Assembly (NCBI GenBank): GCA_963773065.1
Contig: CAVYZN010000023.1
Coordinates: 64,001 to 128,000, forward strand
Direction of reading: 5' to 3'
Source: an uncultured Gammaproteobacteria bacterium
GTDB lineage: Bacteria; Pseudomonadota; Gammaproteobacteria; UBA9214
Length of the DNA stretch: 64,000 nt
Shown: in pieces, positions 20,387 to 53,220 of the stretch
How the letters are laid out: each line of letters starts with the position of its first letter
How positions within the stretch are numbered: the first letter of the stretch is position 1
The notes under the pieces: generated by a model
Databases searched by the model: none
The model's input: the letters and a program-made list of their open reading frames with translations, nothing else
Told to the model about the DNA's origin: nothing
Translations under genes and position numbers: made by a program

Positions 20387-22795
20387 TCATGCCCGCTCGA
20401 TGTAACCGGCCCGTAGCTCGGCGCCGAGACCCGCCGTTGCCGGGGTGCCGCTCGGCAACCAGAGGCATCCCGCGGGCACCCGTTCATCGATCTGAAGCGG
20501 CAGCGTGACGCGGCGCCCGCCCTGGGTGAGACTGACGGAGCCGGCGCCGCTCACACCGCTTTGCACAGCCTGCGCCGCGCACAGTCGCGCCACGACGGCC
20601 GCGAGCGCATCCGGCGTTTCCTGCAGGGCGGCGGCGCGGCGCACCAGGGCATCGGCGGAATGGATCGCCACATCGCCGATCCGCTCCAGACCCTGCCGGC
20701 CGGCGGGCGCGGCGGCGACCGGACCGCTGCCTCGCTGGTCGGCCACCGCCGCGGCATCGACCCGGCGGCGCAGTTCATCGCGCACTTCCTCGCTGAACTG
20801 GTGTAGTCAAACCCGTCCAGCCCGAGCCGGTTGCCGAGCACGCGCAGCACCTTCCAGCCGGGCCGGCTGCTCGGCGTGCGGACGCGGCGACACCGGCAAA
20901 GCTCTGCCAGCGTCCCTCGGCATTGACGAAAGTCCCGGAGGTTTCCGTGTAGGGCGCGATCGGCAGCAGCACGTTCGCACCGGTCTTCATCGCCGCGCTC
21001 GCCCAGGGGGTGAGCGCGACCACGCAGCCGGCGGTGGCGAGCGCCCGGGCGGCGGCGCCCGAGTCCCAGCAGTCGTGTTCCGGTTCGACGCCCACCAGCA
21101 GGTAACCCCGGCGCGGGTTCTCCAGCATGTCGCGGGCGTTCAGGCCGGCCGCGGCGACGGAGGCTCCCGCCGCGCCGCGATGCGGCAGCACGCCCGCGAG
21201 CCAGCCGCCGACGCTGTTCGCCGCCTCCGGCAAATGCCCGAGCACCGCGCCGCTGGCCGCGGCGATCACCGCGGCCAGCGCCGTGAGCAGCGAGTACTGC
21301 GGATGCGCCGTGGCCGTATTGCCCAGCAGCACCGTGCGGCGGCCGGCGCTCCGCAGGGCCTGCGCCATGGCGCGCTGGACTATCATCCGGGACGGCGGCG
21401 GCGATCAGGCGGCGCACCGCCTCCGGCGCCGTGCCGCCGGCATCCGGGAAACAGGCCGCGATACCCGCCAGCGCCGCCGCCATGCCGGATGGCGGCACGA
21501 TGGCCTTCGCATGCACCGGCATGGGGAATTCGTAGTCGATGGGGTTCACGAACATCACGCGGGCGCCCGCGAGCGCCGCCTTGCGCAGACGGTGGGCGGC
21601 GAGCGGCTGCTCCTTGCGCGGATTGGAGCCGATCACCAGGGCCGCCGTGACGGTTTCCAGCGCCTGCAGCGATTGGCCCAGCGTGGGCGCAAGCGGCGCA
21701 TTGTCCTGGTCGGTGAAATCGGCCTGGCGCAGGCGGTGATCGATGTTGTTCGTCCCCAGGCCCCGCGCGACGGCCTGGGCCAGAGTACATCTCCTCCAGC
21801 GTCGCCGTGGGCGAGACCAGCAGGCCGAGCTGTTCGGCGCCGTGTTCGCCGGCGACCGACTTGAGGCCGTCGACGGCCGCCTGCAGCGCGGCGTCCCAGT
21901 CGGTTTCCCGCCAGCGGCCGTCCACCTTGACCATGGGGGATCCCAGGCGGTCATCGGCGTACAGGCCCTCGTAGCTGAAGCGGTCGCGGTCGGACAGCCA
22001 GACTTCGTTGATGGCCTCGTTCTCGCGCGGCACCACGCGCATCACCTGCCCGCGGCGGGTGTGCACATAGATATTGGAGCCGACGGAGTCATGCGGCGCC
22101 ACGGAGGCGCCCTGGTTCAACTCCCAGGCGCGCGCCTTGAAGCGGAACGGCCGGGAGGTGAGCGCCCCCACCGGGCAGATATCGATCACGTTGCCCGAGA
22201 GTTCGGATTCGAGCGAGCCCTCGATGTAGGTGCCGATCTCCATGTTCTCGCCGCGCCCGGTCGCGCCCAGCTCCATCTTGCCGGCGACCTCGCGCAGCAG
22301 GCGGATGCAGCGCGTGCAGTGGATGCAGCGCGTCATGTCGGTGGCGATCAGCGGGCCGATGTACTTGTCCTTCACCACGCGCTTGTTCTCCGCGAAGCGC
22401 GAGACGTCGCGGCCGTAGCCGAGCGCCAGGTCCTGCAGTTCGCACTCCCCGCCCTGGTCGCAGATCGGGCAGTCGAGCGGGTGGTTGATGAGCAGGAATT
22501 CCATCACGGCCTTCTGCGCGCCGCGGGCGAGCTCCGAGCGGGTGGATATCTTCATGCCCGCGGCGACCGGGGTCGCGCAGGCCGGCACCGGTTTCGACAT
22601 CTTCTCCACCTGCACCAGGCACATGCGGCAGTTGGCGGCGATGGAGAGTTTCTTGTGGTAGCAGAAACGCGGGATGTAGATCCCGGCCTGGTCCGCCACC
22701 TCGATGATCATGGCGCCCTTGCGCGCCTTAAGCGCACGCCCGTCGATCTCGATCGCTACCGCTTCCGCCGGCGGGATCTCGGGACGGGCGCTCAT
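20387..22795 (-). CDS. nuoG: NADH-quinone oxidoreductase subunit G (apparent frameshifts)
   Basis: [47 protein letters not shown]. Confidence 0.96.
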
Positions 22796-24093
22796 GCGGC
22801 GACTCCGGTCGAGACGGCGCCGGGGCCCGCCAGGCAGCGCTTGTGGGTGATGTGGTATTCGAACTCGTGGCGGTAATGCCGGAGGAAGCTCTGCACCGGC
22901 CAGGCCGAGGCTTCGCCGAAGGCGCAGATGGTGCGGCCCTCGATCTGGCCCGCGGCGCTCGCCAGCAGGTCCAGGTCCTCGGGACGCCCCTGCCCTTCCT
23001 CGATGCGCTTGATGACCCGGTACATCCAGCCGGTGCCTTCCCGGCAGGGCGTGCACTGGCCGCAGGATTCCGCGTAATAGAACCGCGAGATGCGCAGCAG
23101 CGCGCGCACCATGCAGGTGGAGTCGTCCATCACCATGACGCCGCCGGAGCCGAGCGCCGAGCCGGCCTTGGAGAGCGAGTCATAGTCCATGGTGCAGCCC
23201 ATGATGGCCGCGGCCGGCATGACCGGCATGGAGGAGCCGCCCGGGATCACCGCCTTCAACGCATGGCCGTGGCGCACGCCGCCGGCCATCTCCAGCAGGT
23301 CGCGGAACGGGATGCCCATCGGCACCTCGAAGTTGCCCGGCCGGTTGACGTGCCCGGACACGGAGAAGATCTTCACGCCGCCGTTGTTCGGCTTGCCGAG
23401 CTTGAGGAACCACTCGCCGCCGTTGCGCATGATGGCGGGCACGGAGGCCAGCGTCTCGGTGTTGTTGATGGTGGTGGGCCTGCCGTACAGGCCGTAGTTG
23501 GCCGGAAACGGCGGCTTGAAGCGCGGCTGGCCCTTCTTGCCTTCCAGCGATTCGAGCAGCGCGGTTTCCTCGCCGCAGATGTAGGCCCCGGCGCCGAGAT
23601 GCCCGTGGCATTCGAAGTCGACGCCGGAACCGAGCAGATTCCTGCCCACGAAGCCGGCCGCGCGCGCCTCCGCGAGCGCGTGCTCGAAACGCTCGAACGG
23701 CTCGTGGTGAAACTCGCCGCGCATGTAGTTGTAGCCCACCGTGGCGCCCATGGCGTAACCGGCGATCGCCATGCCCTCGACCAGGGCATGCGGATTGAAG
23801 CGCAGGATGTCGCGGTCCTTGCAGGTACCCGGTTCGGATTCGTCCGAGTTGCACACGAGGTACTTCTGCACCGGCGCATTGCGGGGCATGAAGCTCCATT
23901 TGAGCCCGGTCGGGAAGCCCGCGCCGCCGCGCCCGCGCAGGCCCGATTGCTTCACCTCGTCGATGATCTCCTCGGGCGGGGTCTTCTCCCGCAGGATCTT
24001 CCGCCACGCCTGGTAGCCGCCGACCTTGAGGTAGTTCTCCAGGGTCCACGGCTCGTCGAACTGCAGGGTGGCGAAACAGATCTGTTCGGTCAT
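22792..24093 (-). CDS. nuoF: NADH-quinone oxidoreductase subunit F
   Basis: [38 protein letters not shown]. Confidence 0.99.
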
Positions 24094-47112: not shown

Positions 47113-47400
47113 ATGAACACCTACGAACCTCACCCGATCGACACCTCCGGCGTCCGGCTACCGGAGGGCCTCATGGAACTCACCGAAGAACTCGCGCGCA
47201 GCACGCACGATCACTGGGCGAGACAGCGCATCGGGGAGGGATGGAGCTGGGGTCCCGCGCGCGATGACGCCGCCAAACGGCACCCCGACCTCGTGCCCTA
47301 TGCCGAGCTTTCGGAAGCGGAGAAGCAGTACGACCGCACGACCGCCATGGAAACGCTGAAGGCGATCATCGCCCTGGGATACCGGATCGAGCGCGATTAG
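47113..47400 (+). CDS. Stand-alone RyR (ryanodine receptor repeat) domain protein, 95 aa
   Basis: YEPHPIDTS.V.LP..L..L.E.LA...HD.WA..RI.EGW.WG..RDD..KRHPDLVPYAELSEAEKQYDR. Confidence 0.9.
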   Translation: MNTYEPHPIDTSGVRLPEGLMELTEELARSTHDHWARQRIGEGWSWGPARDDAAKRHPDLVPYAELSEAEKQYDRTTAMETLKAIIALGYRIERD

Positions 47401-47454
47401 CGCCGCAAAGGGCTGCGCCCCACGGACTCCCGAAACGGGGGAAAGCACAACGGG

Positions 47455-48675
47455 TCAATCCTCGATGTCCCTGGCAAGACGAAAACCAATGTAGCTGTAC
47501 CCGGCACCGGGGGAGTCCCTGAGCCGGGACGCGGAACGCAGGCCCACCGCCAGGAGGTACCAGGAACCACCGCGCACCACGCGCTGGCCGCAATCTCCGC
47601 CGCCGCCCTCCAACCAGGCGGAACCGTCATCGGGCGCGCCATCGTAGTTATCATGCACGCAGTCCTGCACCCACTCCCACACATTGCCCGCCGTGTCGTA
47701 AAGACCAAACGCGTTCGCCTCGAATGACCCTACCGGCGCCGTGTACTTCCCTTCGGCCTTGCCCTGCCACTCACTCTCACAATCCTCGCAGTTGGCCATC
47801 CCCGGCTTCATCTCCTCACCCCACCAGTACCGCGTCGAAGTCCCCGCCCGCGCGGCATACTCCCACTCGGCTTCGGTCGGGAGCCGATACGGCTTACCCG
47901 TCTGTTGCGACAGCCATTCGGCATAGGCTACCGCATCAACCCAGGAGACATTGATCACCGGCCGACGGTCACGACCCCAGCCACCATCGGCCGGCAGCGC
48001 ATGCCCCGTTGAGGCCGCAAACTGGTCGTATTCCTCGAAGGTCACTTCGTATCGCCCAATCGCAAACGGCCTGGTGAAAGTAACCCGGTGCTGGGGACGC
48101 TCATCCGGATCCCGGCCATATTCATCGCCTGGCGAACCCATCATGAAAGAACCCGGCGGAATTTCCACCATCTCGGGACCCTTCGAACCATCAAGCAATG
48201 TGTCGCGAATCACAGCCGGCAATGACACGTTGGCTACGTTTACGTTTTCGCTTGGTTCTTTGCTGATTTCAGTCGGCCGATGGGGTTGACCGACAATCTC
48301 GGCGATATCCTTCCTCAGGTTCCGATAAGAATCCTGGTTAACGGTGCCATCCCAATCGAACAATTCAAGCGTTTGCAACTCTTCGAACCGAAAGGGAAGA
48401 TCGACCGCCTCAATCTTGACCGGAACCAGTTTATTGTGATTCAGAGCGTAATACGCCTCGTCCTTCACATAAGTCGACTGGACCGAACGTTGCGACCACA
48501 GGACGATGACGCAGCGGGATGCCTTCATTGCCTGCTCGATCACATCATCGAAGTGTTCGCCCGCGTGGAGCTTCGGGTCCCACCAGACACTCCAGCCCTC
48601 GCGTTCCAGCGCATCCGCCAGGCATCTGGCGACGTGCTGTTCCTCCCGTTTGTAGCTGATAAAAATATCCGTCAT
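47455..48675 (-). CDS. TIR domain + FGE-sulfatase/CLec domain
   Basis: DIFISYKRE, GWSVWWD, VIVLWS..S..STYVKDEA; GPEMVEIPPGSFMMGS, YRLPTEAEWEYAARAG, GNVWEW, RGGSW, GFRLARD. Confidence 0.9.
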   Translation of the reverse strand: MTDIFISYKREEQHVARCLADALEREGWSVWWDPKLHAGEHFDDVIEQAMKASRCVIVLWSQRSVQSTYVKDEAYYALNHNKLVPVKIEAVDLPFRFEELQTLELFDWDGTVNQDSYRNLRKDIAEIVGQPHRPTEISKEPSENVNVANVSLPAVIRDTLLDGSKGPEMVEIPPGSFMMGSPGDEYGRDPDERPQHRVTFTRPFAIGRYEVTFEEYDQFAASTGHALPADGGWGRDRRPVINVSWVDAVAYAEWLSQQTGKPYRLPTEAEWEYAARAGTSTRYWWGEEMKPGMANCEDCESEWQGKAEGKYTAPVGSFEANAFGLYDTAGNVWEWVQDCVHDNYDGAPDDGSAWLEGGGGDCGQRVVRGGSWYLLAVGLRSASRLRDSPGAGYSYIGFRLARDIED

Positions 48676-48812
48676 GCTCGCGACTTGTTCCAGGTTTCGT
48701 ATGCCGGTGAAAAACGAGACGGGGCGTTCGGCCTGCGCCTACCCGCCCCGTCCCGCGCCGTCCGTGACAGGTCTATTAGGCGGCCCCATCCGTGCGGTCG
48801 GCAATGGCGGCT

Positions 48813-50147
48813 TCAGACGGCCGCGGCCACGGCCGTGGCCAGATGACCGGCCTCTTCGCGCACCGTCTGTTCGTCCTCGCCTTCGACCATGACCCGCACC
48901 ACGGGTTCGGTCCCGGACGCGCGCAACAGGACACGGCCCCTGCCGCTGAGCCGCCGCTCCGCCGACCGGACCGCCTCCTGCACGCCCGGCGCGGCCTCCA
49001 AGTTCATGCTCTTACCGACCGGTACGTTGATCATGTACTGCGGATATTTCTTCATGCCGGCCTTCAACTCGTGCAGCGGCTTGCCGCCCATGATCATGGT
49101 GGCGAGCACCTGCAGCGCGGCGACGATGCCGTCGCCGGTGGTGGTGCGGTCCAGGCAGATGATGTGGCCGGAGGATTCCCCGCCCAGCATGCCGCCGGTC
49201 TGCTGCAGCCGCTCCAGCACGTAGCGGTCGCCGACCCGGGCGCGCTCGAAGGCGATGCCGTGCGCCTGCAGGGCATGCTCCAGTCCGAGGTTGCTCATCA
49301 GGGTGCCGACGACGCTGCCGTTCAGCTTGCCCTGCTCCCGGCGCGAGCGCGCGATGATGAACAACAGCTCATCGCCGTCCACCAGTTCGCCGCGGCTGTC
49401 GACCATGATGACGCGGTCGCCGTCGCCATCGAGGGCAACCCCGGCATCGGCGGCGTGTTCCCGCACCGTTTTCTGCAACTGCTCGGGCTGGGTGGAACCG
49501 CAGTCGAGGTTGATGTTGAGGCCGTCGGGATGCGTGCCGACCTTGATCACCTCCGCGCCCAGTTCGTCGAAGATGCTGGGCGCGACGCCGTAGGTGGCGC
49601 CGTTCGCGCAGTCGACGACGATCTTCAGGCCCCGCAGCGACAGGCTCATCGGCACCGTGCTCTTGCAGAACTCGATATAGCGCCCGGGGGCATCGGGCAC
49701 GCGTTCCGCCTTGCCGAGCCGGGCGGAGTCCACGGTGACCATGGGCTTCTCCAGCTCGTCCTCGATGGCGAGTTCGATCTCGTCCGGCAGCTTGGTGCCC
49801 TGGCGCGAGAAGAACTTGATGCCGTTGTCGAAGTAGGGATTGTGCGAGGCGCTGATGACGATCCCGGCGCAGGCATGCAGGGTGCGCGTGAGATAGGCGA
49901 TGCCGGGGGTGGGCATGGGACCCAGCAGGCGGATGTCGATACCGGCGGCGGAAAGACCCGCCTCCAGCGCCGATTCGAACATGTAGCCGGAAATGCGCGT
50001 GTCCTTGCCGATGATGACCAGGTCGCCGCCGGCAAGCCCCAGCACGCGGCCGGTTGCCCAGCCCAGTTTCAGCATGAACTCGGCCGTTACCGGGTATTCC
50101 CCCACCCGACCGCGGATGCCGTCGGTACCGAAATATTTTTTCGCCAT
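48813..50147 (-). CDS. glmM: Phosphoglucosamine mutase
   Basis: [36 protein letters not shown]. Confidence 0.99.
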
Positions 50148-50188
50148 GCTGGCTCCTCAATGATGCCGCATCAGTCCAGATCGGAATT

Positions 50189-50403
50189 ATTCACCGCAAA
50201 GACGCAAAGTTCGCGAAGACTTATTAACAAAAATCATTAAACAGCTTTGCGTTCTTTGCGTCTTTGCGGTGAATTTATTTCTTTATGGATGGACATTGAT
50301 TCACCGCATTTTCGCTCTCTCCATCCTGTCCTGTATTACCGCTCAACACCGAAGTTGTTTTCAAGTGATTATTGGTTTTGCGGTCTTGGCGTCTTTGCGG
50401 TGA
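50189..50403. repeat. Two palindromic elements of the CACCGCAAAGACGC family between folP and glmM
   Basis: Arms 50189-50218 / 50245-50274; a degenerate pair 50299-50308 / 50377-50403; same family as 17976-18119. Confidence 0.8.
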
Positions 50404-50409
50404 GGCTCA

Positions 50410-51264
50410 TTAGCCGGCATCCCTGACCGCCTGACACAGCCGGATCGCCTCGCGAGTCTCGCGGACATCGTGGCAGCGCACGATCGCGGCGCCCTGCCAG
50501 ACCGCCAGCACCGCCAGGGCAACGCTGGGAGTTAACCGCTGATCGACGGGAAGGCCCAGCACCTGGCCGATCAGCGACTTGCGTGACAGACCGACCAGCA
50601 CGGGGTAGCCGTGCGCGACCAGGCGGTCGAGATGGCGCAGCAGCCGCAGGTTGTGCTCAACCGTCTTGCCGAATCCGAAGCCCGGGTCCAGCAGTATCCG
50701 GTGGCGCGGCACCCCGGCCGTGACACAGGCGCGCACGCGCTCCAGCAGAAAGCCGGCGACTTCGGCAACCACGTCCGCGTAGCGCGGCGCCTCCTGCATG
50801 GTTTGCGGCTCGCCCCGCATGTGCATCAGGCATACCGGCACGCCCAGATCCGCCGCCGCCGCGGCGGCGCCTTCCGCCCGCAGGGCATTGACGTCATTGA
50901 TCAGGCCGGCGCCCGCCGCCACCGCGGCGCGCATCACCTCCGGTTTCCGGGTATCGACCGATATGGGCACCGGCAGGGATCGATGCAGGGATTCGATGAC
51001 CGGCAGGACGCGCCGCAGTTCCTCATCCAGCGGGACCGGCGGGGCCCCCGGACGGGTGGACTCGCCGCCGACATCGATGATCGCCGCGCCCTCATCGACC
51101 ATGCGATGCGCCCGCTCGACGGCCCTCGCGGTGGATAAGAAATCACCCCCGTCCGAAAAGGAATCGGGGGTGACATTCAGGATGCCCATGATCTGCGGAT
51201 GCGAGAGGTCCACCGGCTTGCCCGCGCAGTCGAGCCAAATGGGGTCAGCGCCATCTCCCGCCAA
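50410..51264 (-). CDS. folP: Dihydropteroate synthase (start approximate)
   Basis: MGILNVTPDSFSDGG, DVGGESTRPG, LDPGFGFGK, SRKS. Confidence 0.98.
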   Translation of the reverse strand: MAGDGADPIWLDCAGKPVDLSHPQIMGILNVTPDSFSDGGDFLSTARAVERAHRMVDEGAAIIDVGGESTRPGAPPVPLDEELRRVLPVIESLHRSLPVPISVDTRKPEVMRAAVAAGAGLINDVNALRAEGAAAAAADLGVPVCLMHMRGEPQTMQEAPRYADVVAEVAGFLLERVRACVTAGVPRHRILLDPGFGFGKTVEHNLRLLRHLDRLVAHGYPVLVGLSRKSLIGQVLGLPVDQRLTPSVALAVLAVWQGAAIVRCHDVRETREAIRLCQAVRDAG

Positions 51265-51282
51265 GGGTATTCACCACCCGGT

Positions 51283-53220
<1,938 letters not shown>

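What the first reader, a model, noticed from the sequence alone, without database searches (positions are those of the whole stretch)
47403..47583. Second, different DGR-like variable region plus GCA-loop hairpin on the TIR-CLec gene, implying a second template
Seen (minus strand): TGG TAC CTC CTG GCG GTG GGC CTG CGT TCC GCG TCC CGG CTC AGG GAC TCC CCC GGT GCC GGG TAC AGC TAC ATT GGT TTT CGT CTT GCC. It has 12 NNC/NNT codons at CLec variable positions and again the AGG codon. About 35 nt after the stop lies GGGC-GCA-GCCC in an imperfect longer stem. The scaffold differs from the first region in multiple fixed positions (TCC GCG vs TGC GCC; CTT GCC vs GTG GTG). The third CLec gene (46861-46960) lacks the pattern and serves as an internal control. 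Established: DGR targets often have a downstream hairpin with a short GNA-type loop. Inference: two DGR templates diversify two cytoplasmic receptors in one island, while the membrane-anchored one is not targeted.
Basis: partly seen in the sequence, partly recalled or inferred. Interest (0 to 1): 0.75.

Follow-up and report, generated by a model that had tools for sequence, protein, structure and literature searches.

The report
Orphaned DGR variable region, cassette truncated
The end of this bacterial TIR-lectin immune-sensor gene was once rewritten by a mutagenic retroelement, but the element's enzyme and template are gone and only a stub is left, so this is an ordinary leftover, not a second working template.

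Summary
The quoted sequence is exact. It is the 3' end (47473-47562, minus strand) of an intact 406-aa TIR + FGE-sulfatase (C-type-lectin fold) gene. It is a real DGR-type variable region by homology. Relatives in other genomes carry this segment next to a reverse transcriptase and a template repeat with adenine-only differences (6 of 80 genome loci, plus metagenome loci). Against the nearest foreign template the window differs at 24 of 31 adenine sites but only 11 of 83 other sites. All 11 codons opposite template AAC/AAT end in C.

The inferred second template is not there. The 3.84-Mb assembly (91% complete) holds no matching template and no DGR-type reverse transcriptase. Directly upstream of the gene (48707-48796) lies the distal 88 of about 215 positions of the structured element that follows the template in intact cassettes. 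It is cut off 16-20 nt after glmM, and it is the only copy in the genome. The GGGC-GCA-GCCC hairpin sits where verified targets have 6-10-bp stems, but it has decayed to 4 bp and folds no better than shuffles.

Verdict: an orphaned, probably frozen variable region, a new member of a known kind. This scan has noted orphan DGR regions in other genomes before.

The parts
47455..48675 (-). Intact TIR + FGE-sulfatase (CLec-fold) gene, 406 aa, no TM segment (P0001)
   Evidence: Maximum Kyte-Doolittle 19-residue mean is 0.75. Closest solved folds are PvdO 5hha (E 3.6e-53) and TvpA 2y3c (E 1.2e-18).
47473..47562 (-). DGR-type variable region (30 codons, from TGG of GGSW to GCC of GFRLA), now without a template
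   Evidence: Against the L114 TR: 24/31 A-site and 11/83 non-A mismatches. 11/11 codons opposite AAC/AAT end in C.
47563..47586 (-). Upstream invariant scaffold (CAG CGC GTG GTG CGC GGT GGT TCC) that aligns with the 5' part of foreign templates
47473..47489 (-). 3' end of the template-homologous stretch (IMH-like TTGGTTTTCGTCTTGCC), identical in foreign TRs and VRs
   Evidence: The pattern matched 21 metagenome loci. 16 are FGE-type ends; 6 of these loci hold TR-like copies (4 distinct TR sequences). 5 are unrelated chance matches.
47421..47454 (-). Pyrimidine-rich spacer after the stop, homologous to the spacer behind verified targets
   Evidence: Alignment A1.
47401..47424 (-). Decayed hairpin: GGGC-GCA-GCCC core at 47420-47410, with 3 outer pairs across an internal loop. 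It lies where verified targets have 7-9-bp stems with GCAA/GAAA loops.
48707..48796 (-). Truncated remnant of the structured element that follows the template repeat in intact cassettes. Profile positions 99-186 of about 215 are kept; positions 1-98, the TR and the RT are missing.
   Evidence: BLASTN: 82% over 62 nt, E 3.5e-11. MAFFT alignment. nhmmer: E 3.4e-12, the only significant hit in the genome.
48797..48815 (-). Junction: glmM stop (48815-48813) plus about 16-20 nt of flank shared with the closest same-genus genome. The cassette stub starts right after it.
   Evidence: L128 matches 87 nt at 89.7%, then diverges.
48813..50147 (-). glmM (phosphoglucosamine mutase), the housekeeping flank. 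folP, ftsH and rlmE/ftsJ follow on the same strand.
47068..47400 (+). Convergent RyR-domain gene
45385..45474 (+). The 'first region': VR-like end of the nSTAND1-FGE gene (42913-45504). It has a different scaffold and also no template.
   Evidence: best foreign TR is L048: 26/33 A-site, 14/81 non-A; 10/11 codons end in C.
45718..46977 (+). TIR-TM-FGE gene, the internal control without the DGR pattern
   Evidence: 38/86 non-A mismatches; 3/11.

Best explanation
The gene encodes a cytoplasmic sensor-effector. An N-terminal TIR domain is fused to a non-enzymatic FGE-sulfatase/C-type-lectin-fold ligand-binding domain. The binding surface of that domain is encoded by the last 30 or so codons.

Those codons were written by a diversity-generating retroelement. 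In intact relatives the order is NTPase-CLec target, RT, template repeat, structured post-template element, TIR-CLec target. cDNA made from the template, with adenines randomised, replaces the variable region.

In this genome the RT, the template and the proximal half of the post-template element have been lost. What remains is a roughly 90-nt stub between glmM and the gene, a variable region with no template, and a decayed downstream hairpin. The region is therefore an orphan: one fixed allele, inherited like ordinary DNA.

Shown: homology to verified VR/TR pairs, the adenine-site pattern, the absence of TR and RT from the assembly, and the truncated stub. Inferred: that the loss was a deletion or recombination at the island edge, that the region is now frozen, and that the protein works as an immune sensor.
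For: 1. Family context. A self-BLAST screen for A-biased repeats found TR/VR pairs on the homologous FGE C-terminus in 6 of 80 related genome loci (L019, L024, L040, L046, L048, L050). L024 reads AAA_35-FGE target, RT (RVT_1, 59 bits), TR, TIR-FGE target. Metagenome loci L108/L122 hold a TR and VRs with 0/86 non-A mismatches.

2. VR pattern. The window VR against the nearest foreign TR (L114) has 24/31 A-site and 11/83 non-A mismatches (Fisher p 1.6e-10). Other family VRs against non-cognate TRs give 9-16 non-A mismatches. Cognate pairs give 0 (7 VRs) or 5-7 (the two L040 VRs); the two L019 VRs align with gaps and could not be scored in this ungapped comparison. The control gene gives 38/86. 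11/11 codons opposite AAC/AAT end in C, against a background of 0.27.

3. 3' flank. It aligns with the flanks of verified targets: stop, CT-rich spacer, hairpin position.

4. No template. The adenine-tolerant ungapped scan of the whole genome gave at best 23/91 non-A mismatches; control scans tolerant of C, G or T gave 16-23. Gapped BLASTN of the VR and of 10 foreign TRs hit only FGE gene ends, plus weak hits that are not TR-like.

5. No DGR RT. PF00078 gives 5 places. Two on C10 have a GIIM domain. C5 and C32 carry QGxxxSP/YCDD-type motifs. C11 is a 197-aa fragment beside an IS3-type transposase. The DGR RT P0122 as query finds only these. In 40 relatives nothing scored better than E 1.5e-19, the level that this genome's own group II intron RTs reach.

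6. Stub. A profile of the post-TR element from 7 cassettes has one significant genome hit, window 48796-48707, E 3.4e-12, covering profile positions 99-186 only. The same-genus genome G004 shares the glmM flank up to that point and then diverges.

7. Hairpin. It has 4 bp, against 6-10 bp in 9 of 9 verified VRs and 7-8 bp in both L108 VRs, and z = -0.86. In passages I read of Guo et al. 2011 (PMC3240598), stems are 7-10 bp with 4-nt GRNA loops, and removing 2-6 bp of stem nearly abolishes homing in BPP-1.
Against: The assembly has 33 contigs and is 90.9% complete with 6.3% contamination. A trans-acting cassette on unassembled or unbinned DNA cannot be excluded, and remote targets are documented (passages of PMC5758913, and PMC10907252).

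Whether the VR varies between strains was not resolved. Contigs of three other metagenomes cross the VR as single pieces (X1 46900-47595, X2 47020-47604, X3 47172-47556, with 28, 28 and 13 differences). Only 40 of 90 difference rows were printed, none of them between 47408 and 47584, so up to 22, 12 and 12 unprinted differences could lie in the VR.

The glmM/stub junction rests on this one assembled contig; I did not lay reads across 48700-48900.

Hairpin requirements were measured in a phage DGR, not in this clade. One verified target (L050) has only a 6-bp stem.
Confidence: 0.8

Rival explanations
1. The region is still an active remote target. A DGR (RT plus a template for this scaffold, and perhaps a second template for the nSTAND1 gene) lies in the roughly 9% of the genome that is not assembled, or on an unbinned plasmid or phage. 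It rewrites the region in trans.
For: The VR is intact, in frame and fully diversified: 24/31 A sites differ from the nearest foreign TR. The IMH-like 3' end is identical to that of four distinct foreign TRs. Remote and trans targets are described (passages read). The assembly is incomplete.
Against: No TR, no DGR RT and no second copy of the post-TR element is present in 3.84 Mb. No DGR-type RT was found in the 40 relatives searched. The cassette that once served this gene is visibly truncated next to it. The hairpin stem is 4 bp, against 6-10 bp in all verified sister targets. The VR assembles as single unitigs in three other metagenomes at depths of 3.7-5.5, which is weak evidence.
Confidence: 0.12
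2. The region is not DGR-related. It would be the ordinary fast-evolving ligand-binding loop of an FGE-fold paralogue, and the NNC codons and the hairpin would be coincidence in a 60-64% G+C genome.
For: The hairpin alone is at chance level. Binding loops of CLec folds also vary without DGRs: the control gene shows 22/28 A-site against 38/86 non-A mismatches, p 0.002.
Against: The non-A scaffold is only 13% different from a foreign TR (11/83), against 44% for the control gene. 11/11 NNC codons occur against a C3 background of 0.27. The 17-nt IMH-like end is identical to foreign TRs. Both the 3' flank and the 5' flank, the post-TR stub at E 3.4e-12, are homologous to DGR cassettes.
Confidence: 0.03
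3. The hairpin is simply a bidirectional terminator between the convergent RyR and TIR-CLec genes.
For: It lies in the 54-nt gap between two convergent stops. TTT follows it on the minus strand.
Against: The stem is 4 bp and no U-run of 4 or more follows on either strand. The fold is not better than shuffles. Its position and arms align with the GC hairpins behind verified DGR targets that have other neighbours. I did not run the terminator scan tool.
Confidence: 0.05

Closest known systems
DGR targets of the STAND-NTPase/TIR + CLec type in multicellular and sulfur bacteria (Thiohalocapsa PB-PSB1 and RT clade 5D; Doré et al. 2024, PMC10907252; I read passages only)
   Same: The domain logic matches: nSTAND1-CLec and TIR-CLec genes side by side, a single C-terminal CLec domain carrying the VR, and CHAT and other conflict-system genes nearby. 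The paper also reports incomplete loci and candidate remote targets.
   Different: In this assembly no RT or TR exists. The cassette is cut down to a stub, and the two VR scaffolds cannot share one template. I did not place the sister RTs in that paper's tree, and its supplements were not seen.
Intact sister cassettes found here: L024/L019 (uncultured Gammaproteobacteria MAGs) and L108/L122 (metagenome contigs)
   Same: The FGE domain is 63% identical in L024. The IMH-like end, the CT-rich spacer, the hairpin position and the post-TR element ahead of the TIR-FGE gene are all shared.
   Different: The sister cassettes have an RT, a TR with 28-31 adenines, VRs with 0 non-A mismatches to it, and 7-9-bp hairpins with GCAA, GAAA or AGGGAN loops. 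The window has none of these.
Bordetella phage BPP-1 Mtd target site: IMH plus hairpin/cruciform (Guo et al. 2011, PMC3240598; I read the abstract and passages)
   Same: A GC-rich inverted repeat downstream of the VR, beyond the end of TR/VR homology.
   Different: BPP-1-type hairpins have 7-10-bp stems and a 4-nt GRNA loop, 4-34 bp from the VR. Here the stem is 4 bp, the loop is the 3-nt GCA, and the hairpin lies about 50 nt from the end of the template-homologous stretch.
Treponema denticola TvpA (PDB 2y3c), an FGE-sulfatase-type DGR variable protein
   Same: The same fold family by sequence: E 1.2e-18 over residues 260-401.
   Different: TvpA is a lipoprotein served by an active DGR with several remote targets (passage). 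This protein is cytoplasmic, fused to TIR, and has no template.
Orphan or frozen DGR variable regions noted earlier in this scan on other DNA (e1-5069696, e1-3130513, e1-2697129, e1-1165950, e1-3131282, e1-1397636)
   Same: A VR footprint on an FGE-fold gene end with no RT or TR; e1-5069696 also reports short cassette remnants.
   Different: They are in other organisms and gene architectures. I did not check those notes.

Membership tests
DGR variable protein / DGR target site | C-terminal C-type-lectin (FGE-sulfatase) fold domain carrying the variable stretch | tested here: met
   PF03781 at E 2.4e-64 over residues 166-402. PDB relatives are PvdO, FGE and TvpA.
DGR variable protein / DGR target site | A cognate template repeat in the genome that differs from the VR only at template adenines | tested here: not met
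   Best candidate has 23/91 non-A mismatches, no better than the C/G/T control scans. BLASTN in both directions finds only FGE ends. The assembly is 91% complete.
DGR variable protein / DGR target site | A DGR-type reverse transcriptase in the genome | tested here: not met
   PF00078 gives 5 places: four group II-type RTs and one 197-aa fragment. The DGR RT P0122 finds nothing else. The [LIV]GxxxSQ hallmark I looked for is recalled, not taken from a call; it is present in P0122 as IGNLTSQ.
DGR variable protein / DGR target site | Substitutions concentrated at template-adenine positions (AAC to NNC) | tested here: met
   Tested against foreign templates only: 24/31 against 11/83 mismatches, and 11/11 NNC codons.
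DGR variable protein / DGR target site | IMH-type invariant 3' end shared with a template | tested here: inconclusive
   The 17-nt end is identical to that of 4 distinct foreign TR sequences (in 6 loci). There is no own TR to compare.
DGR variable protein / DGR target site | GC-rich hairpin/cruciform downstream of the VR (7-10 bp stem, 4-nt GRNA loop; Guo 2011) | tested here: not met
   4-bp stem and 3-nt loop, z = -0.86. The positional homologue is recognisable.
DGR variable protein / DGR target site | Population-level hypervariation confined to the VR | tested here: inconclusive
   Only assembled contigs of 4 runs could be laid. The VR is crossed by single contigs in 3 runs, but 50 of 90 difference rows were not shown.
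DGR cassette (RT-TR-post-TR element) adjacent to the target | Complete post-template structured element contiguous with a TR | tested here: not met
   Only profile positions 99-186 of about 215 are present, at 48707-48796. The glmM flank abuts it.
Bacterial TIR-domain immune effectors | TIR domain | tested here: met
   TIR_2 at E 1.8e-23 over residues 4-110, and a weak ThsB_TIR hit.
Bacterial TIR-domain immune effectors | Catalytic glutamate and NADase or signalling activity | not tested
   A Glu lies in ...STYVKDEAYYAL.... I did not align it to a solved TIR, so the assignment is by eye and from recall.

The most novel reading that the evidence does not exclude
The region is still being rewritten in trans by a DGR that did not make it into the assembly. 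A scaffold-specific template would serve this gene and another the nSTAND1 gene, and a minimal 4-bp/GCA hairpin would suffice in this clade. One defence island would then run two independently programmed hypervariable cytoplasmic receptors.
Probability: 0.1. Interest if true: 0.5.

Novelty: new member of a known kind. Interest (0 to 1): 0.28.

Why it matters
DGR-diversified TIR-CLec and STAND-CLec sensors are already in print, and orphan variable regions are a recurring sight, so little is new here. Two points are useful.

First, this locus shows how a target becomes orphaned. The break lies inside the cassette's post-template element, at the edge of a defence island downstream of glmM. It leaves a fixed allele of a once-programmable receptor.

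Second, a caution for annotation. An NNC-rich CLec end with a small downstream hairpin does not imply a template. The stub test used here (a profile of the post-TR element) is a quick way to tell a decayed cis cassette from a remote target.

Tried and rejected
1. First adenine-tolerant scan. It was swamped by homopolymer runs. I redid it with a cap on A-site mismatches.

2. Avd-like PF05635 gene on C6. It sits between GDP-mannose dehydratase and epimerase genes with no RT nearby, so it is not a DGR.

3. C11 RT fragment. A weak VR hit lay nearby at C11:317783-317824. The fragment is 197 aa, of low G+C by eye, lies beside an IS3-type transposase and has no TR. Rejected as the missing RT.

4. Metagenome pattern scan with the mid-VR scaffold: 0 matches. 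The second pattern (IMH-like end) gave 21 loci, 5 of them unrelated chance matches (L106, L110, L117, L118, L125). None is a template for this VR; the best has 11/83 non-A mismatches.

5. Search for near-identical short protein fragments carrying other VR alleles. The best hit is 72% identical, so no strain alleles were found. The full-length search's best hit is 64%.

6. Sequencing runs. 16 runs hold parts of the stretch (shares 0.05-0.29), all stored as contigs. Laying 4 of them could not show within-sample variation, and the printed table was cut, so VR identity between strains is undecided. No habitat claim is made from these small shares.

7. Rfam. No family matched the window 47300-48900 or L024/L108.

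8. Weak BLAST/nhmmer hits on C8 and C9 were inspected and are not TR-like.

9. The two L019 VRs align to their TR with gaps. My ungapped comparison therefore mis-scores them, and I did not use those two rows.
Full report
WHAT IS THERE

The window is G000:C23:64001-128000. The quoted codons are exact, on the minus strand at 47562-47473, with the stop at 47457-47455. They end an intact 406-aa ORF, 47455-48675(-). The ORF has an N-terminal TIR_2 domain (E 1.8e-23) and an FGE-sulfatase domain (E 2.4e-64). It has no hydrophobic segment; the maximum 19-residue Kyte-Doolittle mean is 0.75. The closest solved relatives by sequence are PvdO (5hha), formylglycine-generating enzymes, and the DGR variable protein TvpA (2y3c, E 1.2e-18).

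Neighbours:
- nSTAND1-FGE, 42913-45504 (+).
- TIR-TM-FGE, 45718-46977 (+), with a TM helix at residues 165-183.
- A RyR-domain gene, 47068-47400 (+), convergent with the gene in question.
- Further left, a 1798-aa CHAT/TPR-S protein and two peptidase-M15 genes.
- To the right, housekeeping genes on the minus strand: glmM 48813-50147, folP, ftsH and ftsJ.

IS IT A DGR VARIABLE REGION? YES, BY DESCENT

TIR + FGE proteins form a very large family. 7999 of the 8000 scored candidates reached E <= 0.001, and the best is 64% identical. Their C-termini share an invariant frame, RGGSW..LRS..R....GFRLAQDLD, with hypervariable positions in between.

Of 80 related loci fetched from genome contigs, a self-BLAST screen for repeats whose mismatches sit at A in one copy found template/variable pairs in 6: L019, L024, L040, L046, L048 and L050. 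In each, the variable copy is the 3' end of the homologous FGE gene. L024 reads AAA_35-FGE target, RT (RVT_1, motif IGNLTSQ), TR, TIR-FGE target.

A metagenome scan with the window's invariant 3' end gave 21 loci:
- 16 are FGE-type ends. 6 of these loci hold adenine-rich TR-like copies, which are 4 distinct sequences because L119 equals L111 and L122 equals L108.
- 5 are unrelated chance matches.

Anchored on the Gly-Phe-Arg codons, the comparisons with templates give:

| Sequence compared | Best template | A-site mismatches | Non-A mismatches |
|---|---|---|---|
| Window VR (TIR2 gene) | L114 (foreign) | 24/31 | 11/83 (Fisher p 1.6e-10) |
| nSTAND1 gene end | L048 (foreign) | 26/33 | 14/81 |
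| Control gene 45718-46977 | L019 (foreign) | 22/28 | 38/86 |
| Other family VRs | non-cognate | not tabulated | 9-16 |
| Cognate pairs | own TR | not tabulated | 0 (7 VRs), 5-7 (2 L040 VRs) |

The two L019 VRs align with gaps and were left out.

All 11 codons opposite template AAC/AAT end in C, against a third-base C frequency of 0.27 in the rest of the gene. The control gene has 3 of 11.

THE HAIRPIN

All 9 verified variable regions, and both in L108, are followed by a pyrimidine-rich spacer and then a perfect GC-rich stem of 6-10 bp. Loops include GCAA, GAAA, GATA and GAA. Four such flanks, folded as DNA, scored z = -1.8 to -3.6.

The window has GGGC-GCA-GCCC at 47420-47410. This is a 4-bp stem, and 86% of shuffles equal or beat it. 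The 54-nt gap folds at z = -0.86. Alignment A1 nevertheless shows that the stop, the spacer and both hairpin arms are positional homologues of the L024/L019 flank (CGCGGGCC GCAA GGCCCGCG against CGTGGGGC GCA GCCCTTTGCG). The hairpin is therefore real as a remnant but decayed.

In the passages I read of Guo et al. 2011 (PMC3240598), DGR hairpins have 7-10-bp stems and 4-nt GRNA loops, and removing 2-6 bp of stem lowers BPP-1 homing to near the level of a destroyed stem.

IS THERE A SECOND TEMPLATE? NOT IN THIS ASSEMBLY

- Template. An ungapped scan of both strands of all 33 contigs counted only mismatches at non-A template bases. Its best candidate had 23 of 91 for this region and for the nSTAND1 region alike. 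Control scans tolerant of C, G or T gave 16-23 (the first attempt was spoiled by homopolymers). Gapped BLASTN of the region and of 10 foreign templates with their downstream 160 nt hits only the ends of FGE genes, plus weak hits that are not template-like.
- Reverse transcriptase. RVT_1 has 5 places in the genome: two tandem identical copies on C10 with a group II maturase domain, two identical copies on C5 and C32 with group II-type motifs, and a 197-aa fragment on C11 beside an IS3-type transposase. The sister DGR RT P0122 finds only these.
- Relatives. Among the 40 relatives searched, nothing scored better than E 1.5e-19, the level that this genome's own group II intron RTs reach.
- Avd. 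The one Avd-like gene (PF05635) sits in a polysaccharide cluster.
- Orthologues. Same-genus genomes have no close orthologue of the gene; the best matches are 54-58% identical and lie in long unrelated proteins with a conserved, non-variable C-terminus.

THE STUB

The BLASTN gave one unexpected hit. The segment 100-160 nt downstream of the L108/L109 templates matches window 48796-48735(-) at 82% over 62 nt (E 3.5e-11). This lies in the 137-nt gap between the glmM stop and the start of the TIR-FGE gene, on the gene's strand.

In 7 cassettes this post-template element is contiguous with the TR whatever gene follows it. It has a conserved predicted structure: 52 pairs, 18 of them with compensatory changes. 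It has no Rfam family.

A profile built from the 7 copies has a single significant hit in the whole genome, window 48796-48707 (E 3.4e-12). The hit covers profile positions 99-186 only. The proximal half, the TR and the RT are absent.

The closest same-genus genome (G004, glmM 92% identical) shares the flank for about 16-20 nt past the glmM stop. It then diverges exactly where the stub begins.

In L024 and L019 the order is TR, element, TIR-FGE gene. The called protein P0031 even begins inside a template translation. The simplest reading is that this gene once stood directly downstream of its own template, and that a deletion or recombination at the island edge removed it.

MECHANISM AND STATUS

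- Shown: the region descends from DGR mutagenesis, and the cis cassette is truncated.
- Inferred: the region is now a fixed allele, and the protein is a cytoplasmic TIR sensor whose CLec tip binds a ligand. The function follows the conflict-system reading in the passages of Doré et al. 2024 (PMC10907252) that I read; it was not tested here.

The nSTAND1 region differs from this one at 40 of 114 positions, 13 of them third-codon positions. Neither region has a template now.

OPEN POINTS

- The assembly is 90.9% complete, so a trans-acting DGR cannot be excluded.
Allele identity between strains is therefore undecided.
- The junction rests on one contig.
- Supplements of the cited papers were not seen. 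They may list such loci.

COMPARISON AND NOVELTY

DGRs that diversify nSTAND1/NACHT-CLec and TIR-bearing CLec targets, including incomplete loci and remote targets, are published (PMC10907252 passages; PMC5758913 passages). Earlier notes of this scan describe orphan DGR regions in other genomes. This is a new member of a known kind. Its one instructive detail is the breakpoint inside the cassette.

Noticed in passing
window 45530-45692 and 47037-47200: A 164-nt direct repeat at 88% identity. The copy behind the nSTAND1-FGE gene holds the upstream region and first codons of the RyR gene (MNTYEPHPIDTS...). This suggests that a 'CLec gene + RyR' unit was duplicated or that the TIR-TM-FGE gene was inserted into it.
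   Followed up: partly
L024:12333-12532, L019:10139-10338, L046:12328-12527, L108:3666-3865(-), L109:1335-1534(-), L111:466-665(-), L114:1455-1654: A conserved element of about 190 nt directly after the template repeat in 7 cassettes. The predicted structure has 52 pairs, 18 with compensatory changes, and no Rfam family matched (only L024 and L108 were scanned). It is probably this clade's counterpart of the DGR RNA spacer.
   Followed up: partly
L128 (G004:C77), downstream of glmM: The closest same-genus genome carries a different TIR-domain gene (MNESTFDVFLSYHW...) right after glmM. The glmM 3' flank looks like a recurrent landing site for defence genes in this genus; three other genus members have an unrelated conserved gene there.
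   Followed up: no
G000:C10:19323-20285 and 21957-22919; C5:5431-6123 and C32:190586-191278: Two pairs of identical group II intron-type RT genes, one pair in tandem 2.6 kb apart.
   Followed up: partly
G000:C11:319171-319602 (L005): A truncated 197-aa RT (RVT_1, 27.5 bits, YVDD) of lower G+C by eye, next to IS3-type transposase ORFs. It is not of DGR or group II type by motif and is possibly a defence-type RT.
   Followed up: no
G000:C6:32388-32684 (L006:8344-8694): A stand-alone Avd-like four-helix-bundle gene (PF05635, E 2.8e-33) wedged between GDP-mannose dehydratase and epimerase genes, with no RT nearby.
   Followed up: partly
protein P0031 (512 aa, from a 1.9-Mb public contig): The called protein starts with a translated template repeat (MIRGGSWNNKPRNLRSAKRNRNNNLGFRLAQ...) and reads through into a TIR-FGE gene. 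This is a gene-calling artefact, but it marks another TR-then-TIR-FGE cassette.
   Followed up: no
L037:12416-12529: A template-like adenine-rich copy (35 A; ...GGSWNNKPENLRSSNRNRNNTDNRNNNIGFRLA) with no paired VR found in that locus by my screen.
   Followed up: no
G000:C2:11756-12289: A short (217-aa ORF) FGE gene ending in GFRLAQDL. Its scaffold distance to foreign templates is intermediate (19/86 non-A mismatches). It may be an older, more decayed orphan.
   Followed up: partly
window 47455-48675 against 48813-53220: The TIR-FGE gene has a different codon third-base usage from the adjacent housekeeping genes: C 0.27 and T 0.22, against C 0.40-0.53 and T 0.06-0.12. Its G+C is also lower, 0.59 against 0.62-0.69. 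Both are consistent with foreign origin.
   Followed up: partly
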